A stretch of 14,535 bases of DNA from a virus (lineage: Duplodnaviria > Heunggongvirae > Uroviricota > Caudoviricetes): positions 1-14,535 of IMG/VR virus record IMGVR_UViG_2534681705_000018. One strand, written 5' to 3'. Below are positions 816 through 14,535 of the stretch, one piece after another. The notes under the pieces are model-generated. The model searched no databases. It worked only from the letters and a program-made list of their open reading frames with translations, and was not told the origin of the DNA. Made by a program: the position numbers and the translations under genes. Within the stretch, counting starts at the first letter, position 1. Every line of letters starts with the position of its first letter.

Positions 816-2426
816 CTATTTAATTCCCTCATCATTGATAAGGTTGGACATCTCTTTCAACATGAGAGTCATTGAAGCTTTCGACCAATTTAGCGGAATG
901 ATAGGGCTTGGCGCTTCATGCAAAGTTCCCGACTTGTGGATATAGTTATAGCTTTCGGGAAGTGCCATTTCAGGTACACTCCTGCCATTTGCACCAATCA
1001 TATTCTCGCCTGTTATTTGGGCCAATGATCTATTCATAAATTGCACTGAGTCATTCAAATACTCTTCCTTTCTTGATTCTTTATAAACAATTGCTGCTGA
1101 TTTTGCATACCATGAGTCAAAAAACCATTCTGCTTCTGTTGATGGAATGAAGCTCTTTTCTCTTTTCGCATGTGAATTTTGATCGGTATCGGTTTTAATA
1201 TCATTGAACCAAAAATTTGCCGACTGATAATTATCCTTCTCGTATCTTTTTATACCATACGGACCTGCTAGTTTTTTAACTATTTTTAGAACCTGCTCTT
1301 TTCTTCTGGTGTTTATCTTTGCAAGATTTGCAGGATAAATAACATTAAGTAAAGCCGCATCGGCTTCTCTGTAATGTTTATCTTTTTCCAGATAACCTGG
1401 GGATTCTCCCCCTAAATCAAGCTGTAACGTTATTCTTTCATAACCTTTATCTATGAGGTGGTTCAACCTCGTTGTTGAAAGAGGTTCATCCAGTTCATTG
1501 GCTTTAGCTTCGCGTAGTAAATCAGAGACAAAAACAGAGTCTTTCTTCGAGAGTAAGTTCGACAAACGTTCCAGTCCAGAGGTCACCAGTGCAACGGAAG
1601 ATGTGTTTAATCGGGCATCTTCTTCCCATGCTCCGGAATCTTCCATAACATAGAAATTGGCTTTATCCAGATAAGCAATCAGCAGCGCAACCGATTTTAA
1701 TCGGTCACCTTTTTGCCAATCTTCAGCGTTAATTGTATCAGTGTCGATTGCTTGTATAAGGAGATCAAGATAAAGACCTAACGCATCATTTTGTTTATGG
1801 TTCCACAGCTGCGGCTTGCCTTCTTCCTGCACATCTGCCATCACGGGGGAGTTGCTGTCAAATCGGATATGCACAACATTCATTTGCCCGGGAACTCCAT
1901 CCAGTCGTTTGGGGTTGCTAATGACGTCCTGCATTCGCTTAATCTGGTCGGGCGTAGACATATAATCCCACAGGGTGAGCAGAACCTTTTTTGCGGCTAC
2001 ACTATTTCCCTGATCTGATACTAATGCCATATAGCCCCATAAACTATCCCTCAGCCAGACAGCATCATAGTGGGTTTCTGCCGCTGTTTTGTCATCTTCG
2101 AAAGTAGAAGCAAGAATAAACGTTCCCCAGGGTTTCTCCGTCAACGTTAACTTTCGTGTGTTTTCTGTTAATGTTAGCAATCCTTGAATTTCGTCTTTGG
2201 TATAGTGGCTCTTTATTTCATTTTGTAATTTGGCTGAGTGAATCAAAAGACGATAATTAGGATACTTATCTGGATTTAACGATAAATAACTTTTATCTGT
2301 TGCTGCCCCCGTGGAATTAAGAATGTTAAATACAGATTCACTCGTCACTTCTGCCCCTGTCGCCTGGCATGTGCCGCACGAAAATATACCAGCGAGCAGA
2401 AGAGTTAATGCAGATTTCCCTTTCAT
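816..2426 (-). CDS. secreted glycoside hydrolase family 15 (glucoamylase-like) enzyme with N-terminal signal peptide
   Basis: ORF 816..2468; likely start at MKGKSALTLLLAGIFSCGTCQATG (ATG 2426; alternative ATG 2438). Matches recalled GH15 signatures: VWLRDSLWG (WxRDS), GKPQLWNHKQNDALG (GxPQ...D.AL) and SGAWEED (general-acid WEE). AT-rich gene unlike the rest of the window. Confidence 0.7.
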   Translation of the reverse strand: MKGKSALTLLLAGIFSCGTCQATGAEVTSESVFNILNSTGAATDKSYLSLNPDKYPNYRLLIHSAKLQNEIKSHYTKDEIQGLLTLTENTRKLTLTEKPWGTFILASTFEDDKTAAETHYDAVWLRDSLWGYMALVSDQGNSVAAKKVLLTLWDYMSTPDQIKRMQDVISNPKRLDGVPGQMNVVHIRFDSNSPVMADVQEEGKPQLWNHKQNDALGLYLDLLIQAIDTDTINAEDWQKGDRLKSVALLIAYLDKANFYVMEDSGAWEEDARLNTSSVALVTSGLERLSNLLSKKDSVFVSDLLREAKANELDEPLSTTRLNHLIDKGYERITLQLDLGGESPGYLEKDKHYREADAALLNVIYPANLAKINTRRKEQVLKIVKKLAGPYGIKRYEKDNYQSANFWFNDIKTDTDQNSHAKREKSFIPSTEAEWFFDSWYAKSAAIVYKESRKEEYLNDSVQFMNRSLAQITGENMIGANGRSVPEMALPESYNYIHKSGTLHEAPSPIIPLNWSKASMTLMLKEMSNLINDEGIK

Positions 2427-2734
2427 AAAATATTCCATCAATCGTTTGTTAAAAGCGTAGATAACCACTTATTTAACAACTTGAAAATAAGGTGTTTTAC
2501 CTGGGTTGTTACAAAAGGATTGCATTGCGTAAACGCTTTTTATTTACAACAAAATGGGGAAGTATTACGGCGATTGCGAAAAGTCTGAAGCGATTGAATT
2601 AAGATAATATAGAAAATCAGATACAGCAAAAATGGCAGATTGATCAGGTGAAGATAAATTGGAGCGGCGAAGGGAACAACACAACAAGCCACAAGACCAG
2701 TAATAAAGGCGCATTCGCGAGTTCTAAAATAAAT

Positions 2735-5407: not shown

Positions 5408-5587
5408 TCAGGCCGGACGTTCTACGGGATAAAGCGCCCGCTGCATTAAACGCCGGGCGACCTCATGAATGCTCGGAGCAATCCCCAGCGGAGAATTGCG
5501 GCGTTCCTCGTCCTGGATGCGCTGTAATGCTTCAATCTGATCACGAGCGAGTAAAACGGGTTTCACGCTGGCTTTTCTCATAGTCAT
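5408..5587 (-). CDS. small 59-aa protein (MTMRKASVKPVLLARDQIEALQRI...), possible small DNA-binding regulator
   Basis: ATG at 5587 with AGGAGA Shine-Dalgarno; first gene after the tandem terminators; assignment is tentative. Confidence 0.45.
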   Translation of the reverse strand: MTMRKASVKPVLLARDQIEALQRIQDEERRNSPLGIAPSIHEVARRLMQRALYPVERPA

Positions 5588-5605
5588 ATCTCCTGAACAA
5601 AACAA

Positions 5606-5700
5606 TGATTATGATTGCACAAACTGAAATGACGATCTACATCGTTGCAATTTATGAAACGATAACGCATGATGATCGCGTTCTTCCCATTGACTTCAAT
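5606..5700 (-). promoter_or_regulatory. promoter/operator region for the 5587->3520 operon with repeated ACGAT/ATCGT dyads and a CATAAT -10-like hexamer
   Basis: Between terminators and the first gene of the next operon; dyads GACGATctacATCGT and AACGC-N8-GCGTT read directly. Confidence 0.4.
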
Positions 5701-5704
5701 CACC

Positions 5705-5745
5705 TGAAAAACAAAGCCCGCAACACTTCTGGCTGCGGGCTTTTT
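5705..5745 (-). terminator. second, bidirectional intrinsic terminator
   Basis: 8-bp stem AGCCCGCA/TGCGGGCT (5715-5722, 5734-5741), 11-nt loop, T-runs on both sides. Confidence 0.6.
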
Positions 5746-5753
5746 ACTGGCAC

Positions 5754-5777
5754 AAAAAAGCCGGGAAAAATCCCGGC
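5754..5777 (-). terminator. Rho-independent terminator right after the PerC-like gene
   Basis: 7-bp GC stem GCCGGGA/TCCCGGC with 4-nt loop, followed on the minus strand by a 6-T run. Confidence 0.7.
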
Positions 5778-5782
5778 CTCCG

Positions 5783-6070
5783 TCACTGACTGCAATTTTT
5801 CGATCCAGGGTATTTCCTGAATGCCTTACCATTGGGCTGATGTAATCCCATCCCGGCATGTGCCCGGCTGATGGTTTCGCGCATCTCCCCGAAATTATCC
5901 TGCCGTGCTGGTGGGCGTGCTGCCTTGCGGATACATTCCGCGCGACGTTTTGCCGCCTGTTCCCGTGCCTTGTCATCATTCGCCAGCATGATGACCTCAG
6001 CCCACCGCGCCGCCGCTCTCCGGTACAGACCACGCGCTTCCAGTGCTTCCGCTTTGCTGTCGTGAATCAT
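5783..6070 (-). CDS. PerC/Pch-family transcriptional activator-like protein (95 aa)
   Basis: AEALEARGLYRRAAARWAEVIM matches the recalled PerC-family core (AEELE.KGLWRRAAARWLEVM); ATGA start/stop overlap with the upstream gene. Confidence 0.55.
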   Translation of the reverse strand: MIHDSKAEALEARGLYRRAAARWAEVIMLANDDKAREQAAKRRAECIRKAARPPARQDNFGEMRETISRAHAGMGLHQPNGKAFRKYPGSKNCSQ

Positions 6071-6609
6071 GCGCCTGTTTTCTCCCTGGCTGCCCGGCGC
6101 TGACGTTTGCGCTTCTCATTCAGCGCTACCAGCCGCGTTTCTGCGTCCTGTTGTTCCTGTGGTGTCACCTCGCCGCACGGCTGGCCTTTCAGGTCGTAGC
6201 GTACCCCACCAGCCATTAAGGCGCGGTAATAGCGCGGACACTGCGCATAAGATGCCAGCGTCGCACGTAATGCCCCTGGCCCGAATGCCAGCCCCCTGAC
6301 GGCGAGATCCTGCATCAGGTCGTCGAATATCCCCACCTTAAGCGGCTTCGGTGCTTCCCGGCTGAATAATTCAGGCCACAACTCAGTGAGGCGGTTAACG
6401 CGCCTGCGGTTTTTGCGCTGGCGCTTGGTCATATGCCGCCACGGTGTCGCCCCTGTGGGCTTCTGCTGCGCTTTCTGGTTACCGGGCATCACTTTATGCG
6501 CCGACGTGGTTTTATCCTGCTCCTGTGCCGCCTGCGTCGTTTTCTGCGGCGTGCCATAAATGCCTTTCGGTTTTCTGTTAATGGTCAGCTTAGTCATGCT
6601 TTGCCCCAT
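6067..6609 (-). CDS. ProQ/FinO-domain RNA-binding protein with a basic N-terminal extension
   Basis: LTELWPELFSREAPKPLKVGIFDDLMQDL ... YYRALMAGGVRYDLKGQPCGEVTPQEQQDAETRL parallels recalled ProQ N-terminal domain ([22 protein letters not shown] ... RVDLDGNPCGEL); likely true start ATG 6597. Confidence 0.65.
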   Translation of the reverse strand: MGQSMTKLTINRKPKGIYGTPQKTTQAAQEQDKTTSAHKVMPGNQKAQQKPTGATPWRHMTKRQRKNRRRVNRLTELWPELFSREAPKPLKVGIFDDLMQDLAVRGLAFGPGALRATLASYAQCPRYYRALMAGGVRYDLKGQPCGEVTPQEQQDAETRLVALNEKRKRQRRAAREKTGA

Positions 6610-6937
6610 CGTTTTTACTGATTATTTCATGCCCGGAACTTTCATCTACCGGATACCACGCAAATGATCCAGGTTCATCAGAAAGAATGAATTTTGTGTT
6701 TGGCAAATACATGCATTCGTAAAAACCATCTTCCTGATGATACGGTGCCATTCCATACTCACCAGTAAGAATCGGTAATATTTCAGAATAAATTTCTGAA
6801 TCACCAGAATAAAACACATCACAAATCGCCCATGCTGCAATCGGACTATACCAGTCGTTGCCATTATCATTCCTGAATTTTGCCCACCAACCCTGAACCG
6901 CTGGCGAAATATTTTTGGGTATAGCTTCAAGAAACAT
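6590..6937 (-). CDS. hypothetical 115-aa Trp/Tyr-rich protein, first gene of the ProQ/PerC operon
   Basis: ATG 6937 with strong AAGGGGG Shine-Dalgarno; 3' end overlaps ProQ-like start. Confidence 0.55.
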   Translation of the reverse strand: MFLEAIPKNISPAVQGWWAKFRNDNGNDWYSPIAAWAICDVFYSGDSEIYSEILPILTGEYGMAPYHQEDGFYECMYLPNTKFILSDEPGSFAWYPVDESSGHEIISKNDGAKHD

Positions 6938-6987
6938 ACAACCCCCTTTGCAACTCTATTTCTATAATTTCGTGATAAAAATTCCAA

Positions 6988-7290
6988 TTATTCACACTAT
7001 TCCATTTTGATTGTGAACAGTCGTGAATAGTTAGTGAACAGTTTTTTAATAACTGTTCACTATGTTTTTTAGTTTAAAATCATATGGTTATTTTGTTTCA
7101 GTGAACAGTTGAACAGTTACCCCCTATAGAATTTAATTTGCAGTGAAAATGATTCACTGTTACAAGTTACAATGCGTTTTAAAAGTTTTAGCCGAAACTG
7201 TTCACGGCGTTCATTTCGTCGATGAATCCAGTAATGACGCAGCTTTTAGAGGTGAACACTACTGTTCACCACTGTTCACCACTGTTCACT
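6988..7290. repeat. replication-origin-like iteron region: about 10 direct and inverted TGTTCAC(C) copies, an AT-rich spacer, and a perfect tandem ACTGTTCACC x3
   Basis: Direct copies at 7054, 7199, 7263, 7273, 7283; inverted at 7013, 7034, 7101, 7252; palindrome TAGTGAACAGTT/AACTGTTCACTA (7032-7062). TGTTCACC is the P4 alpha-protein type I iteron as I recall; location just 3' of the primase gene. Confidence 0.65.
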
Positions 7291-9058
7291 TTTCATGGAT
7301 TTTTGGCACAGCGGGTAACCATTCATTAGCACTGTCAGCCAGCTCCATGTTGTAGCGCATTCCGACATTGGTCTTTGCCTTCTTATACTCAGCCCCATAT
7401 TCTTTCATCACTTTTGGGAAATCTTTGCCAAAATTAGTTAGATTTAATGGCTTATCGAAACCATAAGCATCCATATATGCAAGATATGCATGGTAAAGAT
7501 AAATTCGAGGGGCTCTTGGATATATATTCAGGTTTCCCATGAACATTCCTACAGCTTCACCAAGTTCGACAATATGGTTACAAAAAGCATATAGCGGATC
7601 AGTATGGCGTTTTACTTCCATTGCTTCTTCACCATCACGTTGCTCGAGCAGTAATGTTCTTGCTTTTTCGGGATCTGAAAAATTTACCAACAGCCTACGG
7701 ACTATTACCGGAATTTCCGCTGCAATTTTTTTGGGTAAACATGTGTCCTTGTTTTCTTCCGCTATCGGATTATTGAACTGAAAAATAACCCTACGGCGTG
7801 AAATACCTCCCGCTCTTTCTGTAAAAACCATCGGTTTATTATTTGTTATCAAAACAACTGAGCGTAAGACAGTGGTGTATCTTTTTTCATATTTCGGGTT
7901 AATTTGCAGAGGATCCCCACCTGTTATAGCTTTAATACCATTACCTTCACCAAAATATTTAGGTTGGTCCGGTAAAATAATCAGACTTTTACCAACTAGT
8001 TGCTCACGTCCACCAGCATCATCTAACGCTTTCATATCACTGCCTGCGGTGTTCTGCTCACCCGCCAACATTCTGGCAATTTGAGTAAACATACTTTTAC
8101 CACTTCCACCTTCGCCAGTTGCTTCAATGAATAATTGCCAGTCGTAGCGATTAGCCAAAACCATAAACAGAGCAGCACATATCCGCTTCATCTTTGATGA
8201 ATCGTATCCTGCTGCATGTGACAGCCAACGATGAAAATGGGGCGCATGGTCATGAATATTTTCACCAGGCGCAGGTGGCGTATAATAAATTCCATTATGC
8301 GAAGTGATCCAGTGCTCTGGTGAATGAGGTAAAAATCTACCACTTGTTATGTCATAAACTCCATTTTCAAAAGGTATTATGGTGTCACTCTGTTCTCTCA
8401 TTACGGGTACAGATATTTTTAAAGCATCAACCGCATTACTAATTGCCCGCTTACTGAAATTTGTCTTGTTTTTTTCGTAAATTGATACCATTTTACGACT
8501 CAACTCCATATCAGATATTTTTTCCCACACTCCAGAACAGTATGCATAAGCAAAATTGTTACCAGGGTGAACAGCTATTTCCTCAAAGCATTCAGCCAAA
8601 AGTGAAGCTCGCTCGTTATCCGCCATTCTGGAAAGAGAGATTTTGTGTTTTTTCTCAGTCCTTCCTGACAGAATATCCCCGCGCTCTGCCTGTTCGCGGA
8701 TCCGTTGCAGGTAATCGCGCCAGTTCTCCGGTTCCCGGTCGGTGATGCCTTTGTATAATTTCGCCTCCTGTACGCCAGCCAGCGCCAGCTTTTCAGCGAT
8801 AGCATTGATCTGGATTGGTTCGATCTCCCCCGCGAGATAGACACGCGCAAAGCGGCGTTTCTCGTCAATAATGCGGATATTCGCCAGGTCTGCCAGTTGC
8901 TTTGGCCCCAGGTAAACAGGTGGTACGTTATCGCCGTGTTTTCGTCCTTCGCTTTCAATCCAGTGTTGAGCATGGGAGTAAGCGTCCGTCCCGGCAAAAA
9001 TGATTACCTCGGTGAATTTATCCTTCGGCTGATATTTTAAATTCGGTGCGTTTTTCAC
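7286..9058 (-). CDS. P4-family primase / D5-like SF3 helicase replication protein (590 aa)
   Basis: Walker A GEGGSGKS in mid-protein; overall organisation of phage/plasmid primase family; GTG start at 9058 overlaps upstream stop (GTGA). Confidence 0.8.
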   Translation of the reverse strand: MKNAPNLKYQPKDKFTEVIIFAGTDAYSHAQHWIESEGRKHGDNVPPVYLGPKQLADLANIRIIDEKRRFARVYLAGEIEPIQINAIAEKLALAGVQEAKLYKGITDREPENWRDYLQRIREQAERGDILSGRTEKKHKISLSRMADNERASLLAECFEEIAVHPGNNFAYAYCSGVWEKISDMELSRKMVSIYEKNKTNFSKRAISNAVDALKISVPVMREQSDTIIPFENGVYDITSGRFLPHSPEHWITSHNGIYYTPPAPGENIHDHAPHFHRWLSHAAGYDSSKMKRICAALFMVLANRYDWQLFIEATGEGGSGKSMFTQIARMLAGEQNTAGSDMKALDDAGGREQLVGKSLIILPDQPKYFGEGNGIKAITGGDPLQINPKYEKRYTTVLRSVVLITNNKPMVFTERAGGISRRRVIFQFNNPIAEENKDTCLPKKIAAEIPVIVRRLLVNFSDPEKARTLLLEQRDGEEAMEVKRHTDPLYAFCNHIVELGEAVGMFMGNLNIYPRAPRIYLYHAYLAYMDAYGFDKPLNLTNFGKDFPKVMKEYGAEYKKAKTNVGMRYNMELADSANEWLPAVPKIHEK

Positions 9059-9345
9059 TTCTTACCTCCCGCAACCAACATTGCCCGGATTTTTTTAATA
9101 TTCGTGGCTGCACGTCTCGCCACCGCCTGTTGTTTGTTTTCCACCAGAATAAAATCACGCTCAAACTGACGGCGCGGCATTACGCAGTCATATTCGTAAG
9201 CCTCACGGCGGTAGGTGATATTGCCTGGCGTAACGTGACGAATAACCACTCGTCCCCCACGTCTGGTGTCGCGGTAAATATCTCCGTGTCTGATTTCAGG
9301 CCGAGCGGGGCCGCTGGCAGTAAAGCCAGAATTTTTCTTTTTCAT
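9055..9345 (-). CDS. hypothetical 96-aa basic protein, coupled to the primase gene
   Basis: ATG 9345 with AGGAAA upstream; stop overlaps primase start. Confidence 0.5.
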   Translation of the reverse strand: MKKKNSGFTASGPARPEIRHGDIYRDTRRGGRVVIRHVTPGNITYRREAYEYDCVMPRRQFERDFILVENKQQAVARRAATNIKKIRAMLVAGGKK

Positions 9346-9550: not shown

Positions 9551-9908
9551 GATTCACCCCCTGAATAACCTGATAACCGCAACTGGTCAGCAATTCGATA
9601 AATTCCGGCAATGTGCCGAAACAGTAATCATCACGCAGACGTTCGCGGGATACTTCAACGCCGTTTTCGTAGTGACTCACCATGCGTCCGGTAAAATGCA
9701 GATCATCATCGTGATGGCACGTTAACGGCTTAATCAGTCGCGCACGTTCTGCCAGTTCCAGCAATGCTTCAACGCTTCCGGCAATTGCACCATCCGGCAG
9801 GTTGTAATTACGCACTATGCGCCCGTTCTCCACATGGACCAGTAGCTGCCCGGTAAATTTCTCGTCAAACTGAATGCGGTTAAGGTCGGTAAGTGACAGG
9901 TTAATCAT
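9543..9908 (-). CDS. 121-aa protein carrying two tandem copies of the same small domain
   Basis: FDEKFTGQLLVHVENGRIV and LHFTGRMVSHYENGVEV; ATG 9908 overlaps upstream stop. Confidence 0.55.
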   Translation of the reverse strand: MINLSLTDLNRIQFDEKFTGQLLVHVENGRIVRNYNLPDGAIAGSVEALLELAERARLIKPLTCHHDDDLHFTGRMVSHYENGVEVSRERLRDDYCFGTLPEFIELLTSCGYQVIQGVNHG

Positions 9909-10104
9909 GGCGTACCTCCTGACGAATACGGGCGGCGAATACCATCACGCAGCCATCAGGAGATTGCTGGCGTGCTTCCTGTTCGCTGGTGGCCTCGATG
10001 TGAATCACGCGCGGTTGTGCCGTGCTCAGAGCGATAAAACGCCAGATGTATTTATTCAGGTTGTGCGAGTCCCGCCCTTGCGGGTGTGTGGTATGATTTC
10101 TCAT
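9901..10104 (-). CDS. small 67-aa protein, first gene of the leftward operon; tentatively Icd/Kil-like
   Basis: ATG 10104 with GAGGT Shine-Dalgarno; IWRFIALSTAQ...VMVFAARIRQEV resembles my recollection of Icd-like proteins (unverified); in frame with the C-terminus of the 402-aa track ORF. Confidence 0.4.
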   Translation of the reverse strand: MRNHTTHPQGRDSHNLNKYIWRFIALSTAQPRVIHIEATSEQEARQQSPDGCVMVFAARIRQEVRHD

Positions 10105-10297
10105 AGCTACCTCGATAATCTTGCTATCGTTGGTGGTTAGAAGCTCTGCGAGTGGTAACGACACTTGCGGGGCTTTGCCTTTAAGGTGCAAGTCACCTTT
10201 GAGGGTTATGCTACTTTTAGGTGACTTGCACTTCAAGCCTTTTTTTATTTTTTTTTCTACGTATACTGAACGCCACCTAACAGTAAGGAGGCCAGTA
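10105..10297. promoter_or_regulatory. divergent promoter/operator region with 13-bp inverted repeat AGGTGCAAGTCACCT (10184-10198) / AGGTGACTTGCAC (10219-10231) and a T-rich tract (10241-10257)
   Basis: Read directly; lies between the leftward operon and a rightward gene with AAGGAGG Shine-Dalgarno; candidate -35/-10 (TTGAAG-N17-TAGCAT) on the minus strand overlaps the repeat. Confidence 0.55.
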
Positions 10298-10477
10298 ATG
10301 CCAACGGGTACAACCAACAACAAATCACAACAAAAAACGGCTAGAATCCCTCTAGAAGTTTTAAGCGAAATGAATTTGGTCAAAGAGGAAAACGAAACAG
10401 ACGCGCAGTTTATCGTTACAGCCATGCGTGGCGAGATCAAACGCCGCCAGCGCCGCAAGGCCAAAGAACAGGAGTAA
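10298..10477 (+). CDS. small 59-aa basic protein, possibly ribbon-helix-helix-like; candidate element repressor
   Basis: Near-consensus Shine-Dalgarno AAGGAGG 6 nt before ATG 10298; strand-helix-helix pattern (ARIPLEV / LSEMNLVKEEN / AQFIVTAMRGEIKRR); only clear plus-strand gene in the element. Confidence 0.5.
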   Translation: MPTGTTNNKSQQKTARIPLEVLSEMNLVKEENETDAQFIVTAMRGEIKRRQRRKAKEQE

Positions 10478-10534
10478 CCATCACCAGCGCCGTGGTGTGA
10501 GGAACTACGGTGCATCGTTTTACAGGGCAGCGCC

Positions 10535-10714
10535 ATGACCAACAAAGAATCAACCAAAACACCATCACCAACTCGTAAGAGACGACGCAAAAATATAGCG
10601 CATGAACATGAATCAGAAAGATTCGCACCTTGTTCGTTTGCTCTTGAGAAATTCCTTAAAGAGCACAGGAAAAAGCTCTCGTTGCAAACCTTGGAACGAA
10701 CCAAATCTGACTGA
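10535..10714 (+). CDS. possible 59-aa Lys/Arg-rich ORF downstream of the RHH-like gene
   Basis: ATG 10535, weak Shine-Dalgarno; followed by a plus-strand terminator; not in ORF track. Confidence 0.3.
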   Translation: MTNKESTKTPSPTRKRRRKNIAHEHESERFAPCSFALEKFLKEHRKKLSLQTLERTKSD

Positions 10715-11109
10715 TCACATTGCCCACCAGCCGCAAATGTGGCATTGTTGGTGATGCGTTCAAGTATGTAGCTTTTCCACTGGCGGCTCTCTGCGGTCGC
10801 CTTTGTTTTATCCAGAACGAAATCAGACATCAGATTGATCAGCACCTGGCGACCTGACAAAATCGCATCAGTCGCGCCACCAGCAAAATTTTTTGCTTTC
10901 CGGACAGCGTGGCCAACGATATTTTGCAGCAAAATATTCTGCATTTCTGGCGTGCTGTGGCGACGGTGATCAGCGCCTTCACATTGAACGAACTTGTCGC
11001 TAAAATTCACCCACATAGCAAACATCGCGGTGCTGTAGGTAATTCGTTCACAAAGGCGCTCCGGCAACGGGGCGCTTTCTCTTTTTGTAACGGTCAGAGC
11101 GTTACACAT
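10715..11109 (-). CDS. N-terminal part of the 402-aa track ORF (9901..11109); plausible gene of unknown function whose true 3' end is unresolved
   Basis: ATG 11109 overlaps the AntA stop (ATGTGTAA); first ~130 residues protein-like, but the middle of the 402-aa frame looks non-coding and is antisense to the plus-strand module. Confidence 0.3.
10782..10809 (+). terminator. candidate Rho-independent terminator for the rightward transcript
   Basis: GGCGGC-tctctgc-GGTCGCC stem-loop followed by TTTGTTTT. Confidence 0.4.
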
Positions 11110-12028: not shown

Positions 12029-12226
12029 TCAGGTAGCTGTTCCGCGTGATTCAGCAATACGCTGATTAATCCACTCGTCAATTTCACTCTCAACGAAAGC
12101 AATCGCTCGCGAGCCAATTTTAACTGATGCAGGAAATTTACCTTGCCCCATAAGGCGATAAATCCATGCCTTGCTATATCCAGTTCTACGCTGAACTTCC
12201 GTTAAACGAATAAGCGTATTTGACAT
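12029..12226 (-). CDS. alpA: AlpA/Vis-family phage transcriptional regulator or excisionase-like HTH protein (65 aa)
   Basis: IRLTEVQRRTGYSKAWIYRLMGQGKFPASVKIGSRAIAFVESEIDEWI is the typical AlpA-family winged HTH; GAGGT Shine-Dalgarno; family-level assignment only. Confidence 0.8.
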   Translation of the reverse strand: MSNTLIRLTEVQRRTGYSKAWIYRLMGQGKFPASVKIGSRAIAFVESEIDEWINQRIAESRGTAT

Positions 12227-12446: not shown

Positions 12447-13193
12447 TCATCGTTTGATAGGACAGGCGACAAGCTCAATAGATGCGGCCTGTCGGGAGGT
12501 AAAACCTCGTTTTTCAAGCTCAGTAGTAATCGCGCCCTGGTTTCCCCTGGTGGCGCGCTCATTTTCCGGATCGTAATTGGCCCACTCTCTGTTTCTAATC
12601 TCGATAGCCAGATACAATGGGTCATCATCTCTGTATTTATTTAATAGAATTGGACGTTCGCTTTCGAGTTTGCGGATTTGCTCTTTAAGTGAAGAAATTT
12701 CCGCAAGTAACACTTCAATATTCTGTTCATCATCCAGAAACTCATTATCAACCACATCAGAAGTTGGTAGAGTTATTTCACTTAATGGTAAAAATAAATC
12801 AATGCCTATTTTCTCTGCAAATTCTTTAAGTTCTGCACGACGAAACCCATGCTTATCAAAAAGGCTTGCCGACCATCTTACATCACAATTTTGAAAAGGT
12901 GCGAATAATGCTATAGGCACACTATTTCTTTCACGAATAACTTCCAGGAGGTCTGTTAAAGTAGGGGCACTATTATATTGATTGGAAAGATCGACATATG
13001 TTGATTCAATAGTACCGGCAATACCTTGCTTAACCCATTCAGGAAGTTCAATCGCACATTCTTTCAAGTAAAGAAAATCTGCAATCTGTGAATAACTAAC
13101 ATGCGGTTGATGTAATTGAATACGAGTTATCAACTCCCTCAGGCTAATAAACTCCCACTCCCTTGCTTTAAGCACTTCGGCAATATCAATCAT
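12447..13193 (-). CDS. hypothetical 248-aa protein between integrase and alpA, coiled-coil near C-terminus
   Basis: Track ORF 12447..13274 opens on GTG; ATG 13193 has GAGGTG Shine-Dalgarno 7 nt upstream; no motif recognised. Confidence 0.55.
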   Translation of the reverse strand: MIDIAEVLKAREWEFISLRELITRIQLHQPHVSYSQIADFLYLKECAIELPEWVKQGIAGTIESTYVDLSNQYNSAPTLTDLLEVIRERNSVPIALFAPFQNCDVRWSASLFDKHGFRRAELKEFAEKIGIDLFLPLSEITLPTSDVVDNEFLDDEQNIEVLLAEISSLKEQIRKLESERPILLNKYRDDDPLYLAIEIRNREWANYDPENERATRGNQGAITTELEKRGFTSRQAASIELVACPIKR

Positions 13194-13320
13194 ACGCACA
13201 CCTCGGCGTCCTCTGTAGTGGTGGCTGTGCCAGCCCGCAGAGGTGTACGGGTTTTCAGGAGCGACCCTAGACACAGCCTTTTCTTAATCGCTCAAAGTCT
13301 ACTACTGTATACTCAACCAG

Positions 13321-14535
13321 TCACCCGCATTTTCCGAACTCACCATGCACCACATTTCCGCCATGCTCGAGCGAATCCATATAGTCGGCATACCACTGGA
13401 GCATCTCCCGGCGACCATCCAGATATTGCGCATGGTTGTATGTGCCACGAATTGAGTTTTTATCGACGTGTGCGAGCTGTGTCTCTATCCACGCGGTGTT
13501 ATAGCCCTGCTCATGCAAAATGGTGCTCATGGTGTGCCGGAATCCATGACCAGTAACGCGCCCGGCATAGCCGATACGACGAATGAGCACATTCATCGCC
13601 ATTTCACTCATTGGCTTACTGTGGTGAATACGACCGGGGAAAATAAACTGATACTGGCCTGTCATGTTTTTTAACTGCTCCAGTATTTTTATCGCCTGTT
13701 CTGGTAATGGCACACAATGCGGACGGCGCATCTTCATTCGTTCTTTAGGCACTTCCCACAAACGATTATCAAAATCGATCTCCAGCCATTCTGCCTGCCG
13801 TAATTCCCCGGGTCTGACACCTGTCAGAATTAATAGCCGCATTGCCAGTTTGACGATCTGGCTTCCGGTGTACGTATTAAAAACGCGGAAAAATTCCGGC
13901 AGTTCGTCGGCTTTCAAATAGGCGTAATGCTCTTTTTTATGTGGAGCAAATGCGCTCACCAGGTCAGGGGCTGGATTATATTCGGCGCGTCCGGTGATGA
14001 TTGCGTACCGGAACACCTCGCCGCATCGCTGGCGAACCTTACGCAATTTTTCAGTCGCACCACGGTCATTAAGACGGGAAAGAACCGCCAGCAATTCCAT
14101 CGGCTTAATTTCTGCGATCGGCCTACCGCCAATGTACGGAAAAACATCTTTTTCAAACGTCTCGATCATTTCCTCGGCGTATGACGATGACCACCTGTCG
14201 ATCCGCTTTTCGTACCATTCGCGAGCAATACCCTCAAAAGTATTGCCAAATTTGCTCGCCTGTTCTCGCTTTTGGGCTTTTCTGGCCTCACTTGGATTTA
14301 TACCACCAGCAAGAAGCCTTTTAGCCTCATCCCTTGCCGCCCTGGCATCAGACAGAGACACATCAGGGTATACCCCCAACGACAACATTTTGGGCTTTCC
14401 TGCAAACCTGTAGCGCAGTCGCCACCCTTTCGAACCGTTCGGCTCAATGAGCAACGAAAGCCCGTTACCGTCATTGAGTGTATAAGCCTTTTCTTTCGGC
14501 TTCGCGCGCCTGATGGCAAGGTCTGAAAGCAGCAT
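13321..14535 (-). CDS. int: P4-type tyrosine integrase (site-specific recombinase), 404 aa, start at or just beyond the right edge
   Basis: N-terminal arm-binding-like region (LSDLAIRRAKPKEKAYTLNDGNGLSLLIEPNGSKGWRLRYRF); C-terminal catalytic boxes HGFRHT and RGTYNHAQY (tyrosine nucleophile). Confidence 0.9.
   Translation of the reverse strand: MLLSDLAIRRAKPKEKAYTLNDGNGLSLLIEPNGSKGWRLRYRFAGKPKMLSLGVYPDVSLSDARAARDEAKRLLAGGINPSEARKAQKREQASKFGNTFEGIAREWYEKRIDRWSSSYAEEMIETFEKDVFPYIGGRPIAEIKPMELLAVLSRLNDRGATEKLRKVRQRCGEVFRYAIITGRAEYNPAPDLVSAFAPHKKEHYAYLKADELPEFFRVFNTYTGSQIVKLAMRLLILTGVRPGELRQAEWLEIDFDNRLWEVPKERMKMRRPHCVPLPEQAIKILEQLKNMTGQYQFIFPGRIHHSKPMSEMAMNVLIRRIGYAGRVTGHGFRHTMSTILHEQGYNTAWIETQLAHVDKNSIRGTYNHAQYLDGRREMLQWYADYMDSLEHGGNVVHGEFGKCG

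What the first reader, a model, noticed from the sequence alone, without database searches (positions are those of the whole stretch)
5705..6937. Self-contained operon of unknown protein, ProQ/FinO-domain RNA chaperone and PerC-family activator
Three translationally coupled genes are closed by two intrinsic terminators. A ProQ/FinO RNA-binding protein combined with a PerC/Pch-type activator (known for prophage-to-host virulence regulation in pathogenic E. coli) inside a satellite suggests a module that reprogrammes host or helper gene expression post-transcriptionally and transcriptionally.
Basis: partly seen in the sequence, partly recalled or inferred. Interest (0 to 1): 0.65.

Follow-up and report, generated by a model that had tools for sequence, protein, structure and literature searches.

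The report
Satellite operon: orphan, FinO-like, PerC-like genes
A phage satellite (PICI-type island) of Escherichia carries a real three-gene unit encoding an orphan protein, a FinO/ProQ-type RNA-binding protein and a PerC/PchE-type small regulator. It is a variant of an operon already mapped in E. coli O157, so it is mostly ordinary, although the satellite FinO-like protein is common and unstudied.

Summary
Three minus-strand genes lie at 6937-5783, joined by start/stop overlaps (ATGACTAA and ATGA) and followed by two intrinsic terminator hairpins. Both profile assignments are strong: ProQ/FinO PF04352 at E=8e-24 and PerC PF06069 at E=2e-32. The element is a PICI-type satellite with integrase, AlpA, a primase and an iteron origin directly upstream of the unit.

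- The unit fills a known slot. In O157 Sp7/EcCIEDL933 and in EcCICFT073 the same position holds hypothetical-SSB-PerC(PchE). The Sp7 version was shown by 5'RACE to be one polycistronic RNA with its own start site.
- The three genes are not an obligate system. Each occurs in the slot without the others, and E. albertii has SSB-ProQ-PerC.
- The sign of regulation is not predictable. The closest characterised PerC relatives do not activate LEE1 (PchE, 51% identity) or repress it (EcCIMP1_025, 46%).
- The FinO-like protein has a FinO-type architecture, keeps the essential RNA-binding residues and belongs to a satellite-specific subfamily. Related DNA occurs in 1170 of 5426 complete E. coli genomes, and I found no functional study of it.
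- The 115-aa protein has a confident all-beta model with no structural relatives.

Verdict: a new member of a known kind, of moderate interest.

The parts
6590..6937 (-). First gene: 115-aa orphan protein with an all-beta predicted fold. It belongs to a small family that is always the first gene after the primase/ori in PICI-like elements.
6067..6597 (-). Second gene: FinO-domain RNA-binding protein of 176 aa from the conserved ATG (an upstream in-frame ATG at 6609 gives 180 aa). It has a basic N-terminal extension, a FinO domain (about residues 63-165) and a short basic tail, with no Tudor-like C-terminal domain.
   Evidence: PF04352 at E=8.2e-24. Matches to solved ProQ NTD 5nb9 (E=5.6e-12), FinO 1dvo, NMB1681 and RocC. 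ProQ R58/Y70/R80 align with R115/Y127/R137. Below the NCBIfam cutoffs for FinO (64 vs 136 bits) and ProQ (57 vs 127 bits). The start overlaps the upstream stop. The N-terminal extension is as conserved as the domain.
5783..6070 (-). Third gene: PerC-family small regulator of 95 aa, PchE-type.
   Evidence: PF06069 at E=2.2e-32, full length. 51% identical to PchE of O157 Sakai and 46% to EcCIMP1_025. ATGA overlap with the ProQ-like stop.
5757..5781 (-). Terminator T1: GCCGGGA-UUUU-UCCCGGC followed by UUUUUUG, beginning right after the PerC stop. It is part of the conserved ProQ-PerC block.
   Evidence: RNA fold. The homology block with L003 and L021 starts at window 5752.
5713..5743 (-). Terminator T2: a 12-bp stem followed by a U run, with an A-run on its 5' side, so it reads as a terminator on both strands. 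It lies outside the block shared with L003 and L021.
   Evidence: Terminator scan, RNA fold, blastn block limits.
6938..6990 (-). 5' leader and candidate promoter: Shine-Dalgarno AAGGGGG at 6948-6942, and a weak TTGGAA (6987-6982)-N15-TATAGA (6966-6961).
   Evidence: Read. It falls below the 9/12 threshold of the promoter scan. An analogous TATAAA-like box precedes the mapped start site upstream of ECs1586 in Sakai. This is inference, not proof.
7013..7290 (.). Context: satellite replication origin directly upstream of the unit, with iterons GTGAACAGT / ACTGTTCAC in both orientations around an AT-rich core.
   Evidence: Repeat families D1-D3. GC is 29.5%. The layout is as described for E. coli PICI origins (PMC6092414).

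Best explanation
The region is a compact transcription unit in the accessory slot between the replication origin and the packaging genes of an enterobacterial PICI-type phage satellite. It is the local version of a slot that carries [small variable gene]-[SSB and/or FinO-domain protein]-[PerC-type protein] in related satellites.

It most likely behaves as a moron-like regulatory cassette. It would be transcribed on its own from just downstream of the ori (inferred from the mapped Sp7 homologue), translated by coupling, and insulated from the packaging genes by terminators.

Inferred roles of the products:
- The PerC-type protein acts as other Pch proteins do, by remodelling H-NS-silenced promoters in the host and possibly on the AT-rich satellite itself. 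The sign and targets cannot be predicted.
- The FinO-domain protein binds terminator-type hairpins with 3' U tails through its conserved R115/Y127/R137 pocket. Its basic N-terminal extension may serve as a chaperone arm, as in FinO. It would tune the stability or pairing of a small set of RNAs; candidates are the cassette's own T1/T2 3' end, other satellite RNAs and helper transcripts.
- The 115-aa protein is an independent, exchangeable occupant of the slot with unknown activity.

Shown here: gene structure, domains, residues, terminators, synteny, mosaic distribution. Inferred: promoter, RNA ligands, PerC targets.
For: - Domains and residues. R58, Y70 and R80 are the essential RNA-binding residues of ProQ (PMC10168233).
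- FinO domains bind intrinsic terminators (PMC12001967; PMC9977716).
- Coupling and terminators.
- Syntenic operons: Sp7 and CFT073 have hyp-SSB-PerC after the primase/ori. E. albertii has SSB-ProQ-PerC. E. ruysiae and other E. coli have ProQ-PerC.
- The Sp7 tricistron is one RNA with its own start site in uninduced cells, and SMX-TM lowers its expression (PMC7369912).
- ProQ-PerC-T1 is a separate homology block of 58-64% GC between flanks of 30-40% GC.
- Pch proteins act by relieving H-NS silencing (PMC4764244).
- PchE changes flagella, curli and adhesin expression (PMC7369912).
- The subfamily is satellite-specific. It is absent from 50,697 phage records apart from 6 distant hits, and only distant relatives occur on true plasmids.
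- Both synonymous and non-synonymous changes are seen, consistent with real coding genes under constraint.
Against: - No convincing sigma-70 promoter lies upstream of 6937, and no minus-strand terminator lies between the primase stop and the unit. Read-through from the AlpA/primase operon therefore cannot be excluded.
- The terminators are not conserved in more diverged cassettes (L004, L016).
- No RNA ligand was identified. Synonymous-site analysis gave no sign of an overlapping RNA element in the ProQ-like gene.
- The Rfam hit on the terminators is below threshold.
- The FinO gene's most conserved neighbour is the primase/ori rather than PerC (Serratia). This fits a replication role as well as a regulatory one.
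Confidence: 0.55

Rival explanations
1. Life-cycle module of the satellite. The FinO-domain protein, like the SSB it accompanies or replaces, serves replication at the adjacent ori. It could do so by binding primer or antisense RNA or single strands, in the way plasmid FinO-family proteins control replication. PerC would switch on the downstream packaging operon.
For: - The primase/ori -> ProQ order is kept even at 42% identity in Serratia oryzae, where no PerC is detectable.
- SSB and ProQ share or exchange the same position.
- Plasmid FopA stabilises the antisense RNA Inc that controls repZ, and the family's most pervasive association is DNA metabolism (PMC9977716).
- A promoter-like site (5635->5608) for the next operon lies just after the terminators.
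Against: - The Sp7 homologous operon is expressed from its own start site in uninduced cells, and an SOS-inducing drug reduces it.
- PerC is truncated in the commonest E. coli variant, although that element type is very widespread.
- Many satellites with the same slot have no ProQ.
- No antisense RNA was found.
Confidence: 0.25
2. One reading: a dedicated two-layer module, with the RNA chaperone and the transcriptional activator working together to reprogramme host virulence (LEE/T3SS-type) or helper gene expression.
For: - PerC/Pch proteins of prophages activate LEE1, and the satellite OI-51 influences T3S (PMC3378721).
- The two genes are translationally coupled and travel as one block.
Against: - The closest characterised relatives do not activate LEE1 or repress it (PMC11773190).
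- The OI-51 effect on T3S maps to RgdR, not PchE.
- The genes occur independently of each other.
- The cassette also occurs in E. ruysiae, a uropathogenic strain's relatives and commensal-type strains.
Confidence: 0.12
3. Anti-phage or helper-interference cargo. The slot after the ori is a cargo hotspot, and the orphan 115-aa protein, possibly with its neighbours, blocks competing phages or the helper.
For: - The first gene of the slot is highly variable between otherwise similar satellites.
- The 115-aa family is restricted to this slot.
- PICIs are known carriers of defence genes (PMC13612085).
Against: - None of the three proteins hits PADLOC.
- There is no enzymatic or toxin-like fold match.
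- ProQ and PerC are regulators by family.
Confidence: 0.08

Closest known systems
ECs1586-ECs1587(SSB)-pchE operon of prophage-like element Sp7 / OI-51 (= cf-PICI EcCIEDL933) in E. coli O157:H7, and its counterpart in EcCICFT073
   Same: It occupies the same slot: RgdR-like DUF4222 gene, primase, ori, then a small hypothetical gene, a single-strand nucleic-acid-binding protein, and a PerC-family gene followed by the packaging genes. PerC is 51% identical to PchE. The Sp7 unit is experimentally polycistronic (PMC7369912).
   Different: The middle gene here is a FinO-domain protein, not an SSB (no similarity). The first gene is unrelated (hhalign probability 0.04%). The window's satellite has a different packaging and cargo set.
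FinO of F-like plasmids (with plasmid relatives FopA and PcnR)
   Same: Both have a basic, probably disordered N-terminal extension followed by a FinO domain and a short tail, encoded on a mobile element. The solved FinO structure 1dvo matches at E=2e-10. The conserved concave-face residues are present.
   Different: It is below the NCBIfam FinO cutoff (64 vs 136 bits). It is chromosomal and satellite-borne, never on true plasmids at more than about 45% identity. No cognate antisense RNA is known or was found.
Chromosomal ProQ of E. coli/Salmonella
   Same: The FinO domain gives the best structural-sequence match (5nb9, E=5.6e-12). R58, Y70, R80, K35 and R69 are conserved.
   Different: There is no linker or Tudor-like C-terminal domain. 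It is below the ProQ equivalog cutoff (57 vs 127 bits). K54 and R62 are not conserved (P111, A119).
PerC of EPEC pEAF, PchA/B/C of EHEC prophages, and EcCIMP1_025
   Same: It gives a full-length PF06069 match. It is a small protein encoded on a mobile element.
   Different: It belongs to the satellite PchE-like branch. Members of that branch are reported not to activate LEE1, or to repress it (PMC11773190), so 'activator' is not established.

Membership tests
ProQ/FinO family (PF04352) | FinO-domain profile match above the curated threshold | tested here: met
   84.1 bits against a cutoff of 27, E=8.2e-24, model positions 5-108 of 109.
ProQ/FinO family (PF04352) | Conserved concave-face RNA-binding residues (ProQ R58, Y70, R80) | tested here: met
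   The alignment to 5nb9 places R115, Y127 and R137 at these positions, and K91 and R126 at K35 and R69. Their essentiality is shown in PMC10168233.
ProQ/FinO family (PF04352) | Binding of terminator-type RNA hairpins | not testable with these tools
   Needs gel shift, three-hybrid or CLIP experiments.
FinO proper (NF010317) / ProQ proper (NF003434) | Score above the NCBIfam subfamily or equivalog cutoff; for ProQ, also a C-terminal Tudor-like domain | tested here: not met
   64.3 bits against 136 (FinO) and 57.5 against 127 (ProQ). The protein ends about 15 residues after the FinO domain.
PerC family (PF06069) | Full-length profile match above the curated threshold | tested here: met
   111.6 bits against 22.6, E=2.2e-32, positions 1-89 of 90.
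PerC family (PF06069) | Transcriptional activation of LEE1/ler (the activity that named the family) | not testable with these tools
   The nearest characterised relatives differ. PchE-type proteins of PICIs are cited as having no effect on LEE1, and EcCIMP1_025 represses it (PMC11773190). Identities are 51% and 46%.
PICI-type phage satellite (Gram-negative) | Integrase, AlpA regulator, primase-replicase followed by an iteron origin, and no tail or lysis genes | tested here: met
   Integrase, AlpA, D5/P4 primase. Iterons flanking an AT-rich core. Only TerS-like and protease-like morphogenesis genes. The 98% identical locus sits next to tRNA-Gly.
PICI-type phage satellite (Gram-negative) | Induction and packaging by a helper phage | not testable with these tools
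   Requires experiments.
Rho-independent terminators | GC-rich hairpin followed by a U run at the operon's 3' end | tested here: met
   T2 by scan. T1 and T2 by folding, z=-4.9.
Moron-like autonomous cassette | Own promoter, own terminator, and base composition different from the flanks | tested here: inconclusive
   Terminator and composition are met. The promoter is only weak by sequence and is inferred from the mapped start site of the Sp7 homologue.

The most novel reading that the evidence does not exclude
Satellite-borne FinO-domain proteins would be a widespread second RNA chaperone of Escherichia. Related genes are found in about 22% of complete E. coli genomes, with up to 9 copies, and are absent from K-12-type models. 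In this reading the protein governs satellite replication or induction through a cis-encoded structured RNA, such as the int-alpA RNA motif or an ori-proximal transcript. That would be an RNA-based copy-number or induction control of the FinO/FopA/PcnR kind, operating in a phage satellite and interchangeable with SSB.
Probability: 0.15. Interest if true: 0.7.

Novelty: new member of a known kind. Interest (0 to 1): 0.38.

Why it matters
PerC-type genes in E. coli satellites are already known, and the syntenic operon has been mapped, so the finding as stated adds little.

The point worth keeping is the FinO-domain gene. Satellites carry a distinct subfamily with a FinO-like architecture, found in roughly one fifth of complete E. 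coli genomes, often in several copies. I found no paper that studies its function.

ProQ/FinO interactome work as I know it was done in strains without such satellites, so this protein may compete with or extend the host ProQ regulon in natural isolates. It may also provide the first RNA-level control in PICI biology.

The finding further shows that the post-ori slot swaps SSB and FinO-domain proteins. That gives a testable hint about what the slot is for.

Tried and rejected
- PADLOC gave no defence-system hit for any of the three proteins or for seven other satellite ORFs.
- I looked for an RNA element overlapping the ProQ-like gene. DNA identity is highest in its 5' third, but synonymous changes are as frequent there as in the domain. 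That is protein-level constraint, not an RNA. The weak plus-strand terminator-like hairpins inside the gene are unsupported.
- Rfam gave nothing at the finding except a sub-threshold match caused by the terminators.
- The Sp7 'ssDNA-binding protein' is not a mis-annotated ProQ. It is a true SSB (PF00436) with no similarity to the window protein.
- The first genes of the slot in Sp7 and Serratia are not remote homologues of the 115-aa family.
- The promoter alignment across satellites was uninformative beyond a shared TATAAA-like box.
- EcCIMP1 has PerC elsewhere in the island and no ProQ, so it does not inform the pairing.
- Porter et al. 2005 could not be read. Its result is cited second-hand from PMC11773190.

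Full report
**1. What is in the sequence**

All long ORFs of the window lie on the minus strand. The finding's span, 5705-6937, holds three of them:
- 6590-6937 (115 aa).
- 6067-6609 (180 aa as listed). The conserved start, which PGAP uses in a 98% identical E. coli locus, is the ATG at 6597, giving 176 aa.
- 5783-6070 (95 aa).

Read directly, the ATG at 6597 overlaps the TAA of the first gene (ATGACTAA). The TGA of the second gene overlaps the ATG of the third (ATGA). Each start has a purine-rich stretch upstream.

After the third gene come two hairpins with U runs:
- T1 (about 5781-5757): GCCGGGA/UCCCGGC followed by U6.
- T2 (5743-5713): a 12-bp stem followed by a U run.

T2 is reported by the scan. 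Both appear in the RNA fold of 5800->5690, at -44.6 kcal/mol and z=-4.9 against 200 shuffles.

**2. Domain assignments**

- *Second protein.* It matches PF04352 ProQ/FinO at 84.1 bits (cutoff 27, E=8.2e-24), and the third matches PF06069 PerC at 111.6 bits (cutoff 22.6, E=2.2e-32) over model positions 1-89 of 90.
- *Solved relatives.* The FinO-domain protein matches E. coli ProQ NTD (5nb9, E=5.6e-12), FinO (1dvo), NMB1681 and RocC. In that alignment ProQ R58, Y70 and R80 correspond to R115, Y127 and R137. These three are the residues found essential for binding all tested RNAs (PMC10168233). K35 and R69 are also kept, while K54 and R62 are not.
- *Subfamily.* It scores below the NCBIfam cutoffs for FinO proper and ProQ proper and lacks ProQ's C-terminal domain. 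It has a basic N-terminal extension of about 60 residues, as FinO does.
- *Constraint on the extension.* It is as conserved at the protein level as the domain. Synonymous changes are not depleted there (10/58 codons against 22/103 in the comparison with E. albertii). The constraint is therefore on the protein, not on a hidden RNA.
- *115-aa protein.* It has no Pfam, NCBIfam or PADLOC match and hits only an unknown-function PHROG.

**3. Context**

Gene order on the minus strand:
- integrase (13321-14535)
- 275-aa ORF
- AlpA (12029-12226)
- AntA/B antirepressor
- 402-aa ORF with an Icd/repressor-like C-terminus
- two small phrog_340 genes
- a DUF4222 protein
- a D5/P4-type primase (7286-9058)
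- an AT-rich stretch (29.5% GC) with at least 11 copies of GTGAACAGT in both orientations (7013-7290)
- the three-gene unit
- a small gene, a protease/scaffold-like pair (phrog_6216/DUF2213), a TerS-like HTH protein and cargo

This is the layout described for Gram-negative PICIs, including the iteron origin downstream of pri-rep (PMC6092414). A 98% identical copy in E. coli ETEC1748 lies next to tRNA-Gly.

**4. The slot is known, and its content is mosaic**

Slot content in related satellites:

| Element | After the primase/ori |
|---|---|
| O157 Sakai Sp7 (OI-51, the cf-PICI EcCIEDL933) | ECs1586 (hypothetical) - ECs1587 (true SSB, PF00436) - pchE |
| EcCICFT073 | same arrangement |
| E. albertii | SSB-ProQ-PerC |
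| E. ruysiae and some E. coli | ProQ-PerC |
| Commonest E. coli variant (protein indexed in about 4000 blocks of the collection) | SSB-ProQ, then a 138-aa AT-rich insertion that has truncated PerC |
| Serratia oryzae satellite | primase - 140-aa gene - ProQ, with no detectable PerC |

- The window's PerC is 51% identical to PchE.
- The 115-aa family (22 representatives in 1.84 billion proteins) is always the first gene after the primase/ori. It sits upstream of ProQ-PerC at 63-64% identity or directly upstream of capsid genes with neither.
- At the DNA level, ProQ-PerC-T1 is a discrete block (window 5752-6613, 94% identity to E. ruysiae) between unrelated flanks. It has 58-64% GC against 30-40% around it. 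T2 lies outside that block.
- More diverged cassettes lack comparable terminators.

The three genes are thus independent occupants of one slot, not an obligate system. ProQ-PerC, however, often moves as a pair.

**5. Distribution**

- DNA related to the ProQ-like gene alone occurs in 1170 of 5426 complete E. coli genomes, at 1652 places (up to 9 per genome), all on chromosomes.
- 161 genomes have a place covering at least 80% of the ProQ-PerC-terminator query.
- Only 9 genomes match at least 80% of the 5600-7100 query; six of them (97.7-98.3% identical) span the 115-aa gene, and in three the match ends within it.
- PGAP already labels the two genes 'ProQ/FINO family protein' and 'PerC family transcriptional regulator'.
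- Among 50,697 phage records there are only 6 distant ProQ hits and one PerC fragment.
- On true plasmids only distant relatives occur.

**6. What is known from experiments on relatives**

- 5'RACE and RNA-seq in O157 place the pchE start site 10 nt upstream of ECs1586. The result is one RNA for ECs1586-ECs1587-pchE. A promoter fusion is active in uninduced cells, and SMX-TM lowers it (PMC7369912).
- PchE alters expression of flagellar, curli and adhesin genes (same paper).
- Pch proteins act by relieving H-NS/StpA/Hha/YdgT silencing (PMC4764244).
- PICI PerC homologues of EDL933 and CFT073 are reported to have no effect on LEE1, and EcCIMP1_025 represses LEE1 (PMC11773190). The window protein is 46% identical to EcCIMP1_025.
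- The T3S effect of OI-51 maps to RgdR, not PchE (PMC3378721).
- For FinO-domain proteins, binding of intrinsic terminators is the rule (PMC9977716, PMC12001967).
- I found no study of a satellite-encoded member. The only mentions are annotations in an E. cloacae survey (PMC13612085).

**7. Most likely mechanism**

*Shown:* a coupled three-gene unit with terminators; intact FinO-domain RNA-binding residues; a full-length PerC fold family match; a conserved slot; mosaic exchange.

*Inferred:*
- The unit is expressed on its own, like its Sp7 homologue. Sequence support is only a weak TTGGAA-N15-TATAGA at 6987-6961 with a good Shine-Dalgarno. Read-through from the primase is not excluded, because no minus-strand terminator separates them.
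- The PerC-type protein modulates H-NS-silenced promoters.
- The FinO-domain protein binds terminator hairpins. T2 has an A-run 5' of the stem and U-runs after it, so it reads as a terminator on both strands. From my own recollection of the ProQ literature, that pattern is typical of ProQ-type ligands. The cassette's own 3' end is therefore a plausible ligand.

*Main rival.* The FinO-domain protein may belong functionally with the ori and SSB, in replication control as for the plasmid proteins FopA and PcnR, while PerC turns on the packaging operon. The conserved primase-ProQ linkage favours this. The expression data from Sp7 and the decay of PerC in the commonest variant argue against it.

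**8. The orphan protein**

**9. Verdict**

The unit is a new member, with a FinO-domain protein in place of or in addition to SSB, of a known and partly characterised PICI accessory operon. It is not a special virulence-reprogramming device. The satellite FinO-domain subfamily is common, conserved and uncharacterised, which makes it a reasonable target for RNA-binding studies.

Noticed in passing
window 13210-13277 (-): Rfam int-alpA RNA motif (RF02996) at 47 bits against a gathering score of 35.8. It lies just downstream of the integrase stop and overlaps the listed start of the 275-aa ORF (12447-13274). It is a structured RNA of unknown function carried by the same satellite that encodes a FinO-domain protein.
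   Followed up: partly
window 9055-9345 (-): The DUF4222 protein upstream of the primase is a homologue of RgdR (ECs1581), the OI-51 regulator of type III secretion and motility, at 49% identity. RgdR itself matches PF13973. Residue 20 of the RGD motif, shown to matter for activity, is H here (HGD).
   Followed up: partly
window 7013-7290: Replication origin with at least 11 copies of the 9-mer GTGAACAGT/ACTGTTCAC in both orientations. These include three tandem 10-nt repeats next to the primase stop and a palindrome at 7032-7062, around a 29.5% GC core.
   Followed up: yes
L010 4479-5129 (E. coli CP057154 and many others): In the most widespread E. coli version of the slot (SSB-ProQ), a 138-aa AT-rich ORF with no family match sits where the PerC N-terminus should be. 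Only a frameshifted or truncated PchE-like remnant follows. PerC has decayed while ProQ stays intact.
   Followed up: partly
window 5800-6600 versus flanks: The ProQ-PerC block has 58-64% GC inside an element of 30-45% GC. Together with the sharp homology breakpoints at 5752 and about 6613, this indicates a cassette of separate origin.
   Followed up: yes
window 5408-5640 (-): A promoter-like site (TCGTCA-16-CATAAT, 5635->5608) lies right after the terminators. It precedes a 57-65-aa ORF with no family match that heads the protease/scaffold-like and TerS-like genes. This may be the start of the packaging operon.
   Followed up: no
window 9901-11109 (-): A 402-aa ORF has only its last ~80 residues matching Icd/repressor-like PHROGs (phrog_6196, E=5.5e-52). 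In the 98% identical E. coli locus the Icd-like gene is annotated as a separate 121-aa protein. The window may carry a fusion or a different N-terminal part.
   Followed up: no
window 816-2468 (-): A 550-aa ORF at the cargo end has only a marginal Pfam match to glycosyl hydrolase family 15 (22.4 bits against a cutoff of 22) and no PHROG or PADLOC hit. The corresponding region of the closest E. coli locus differs.
   Followed up: no
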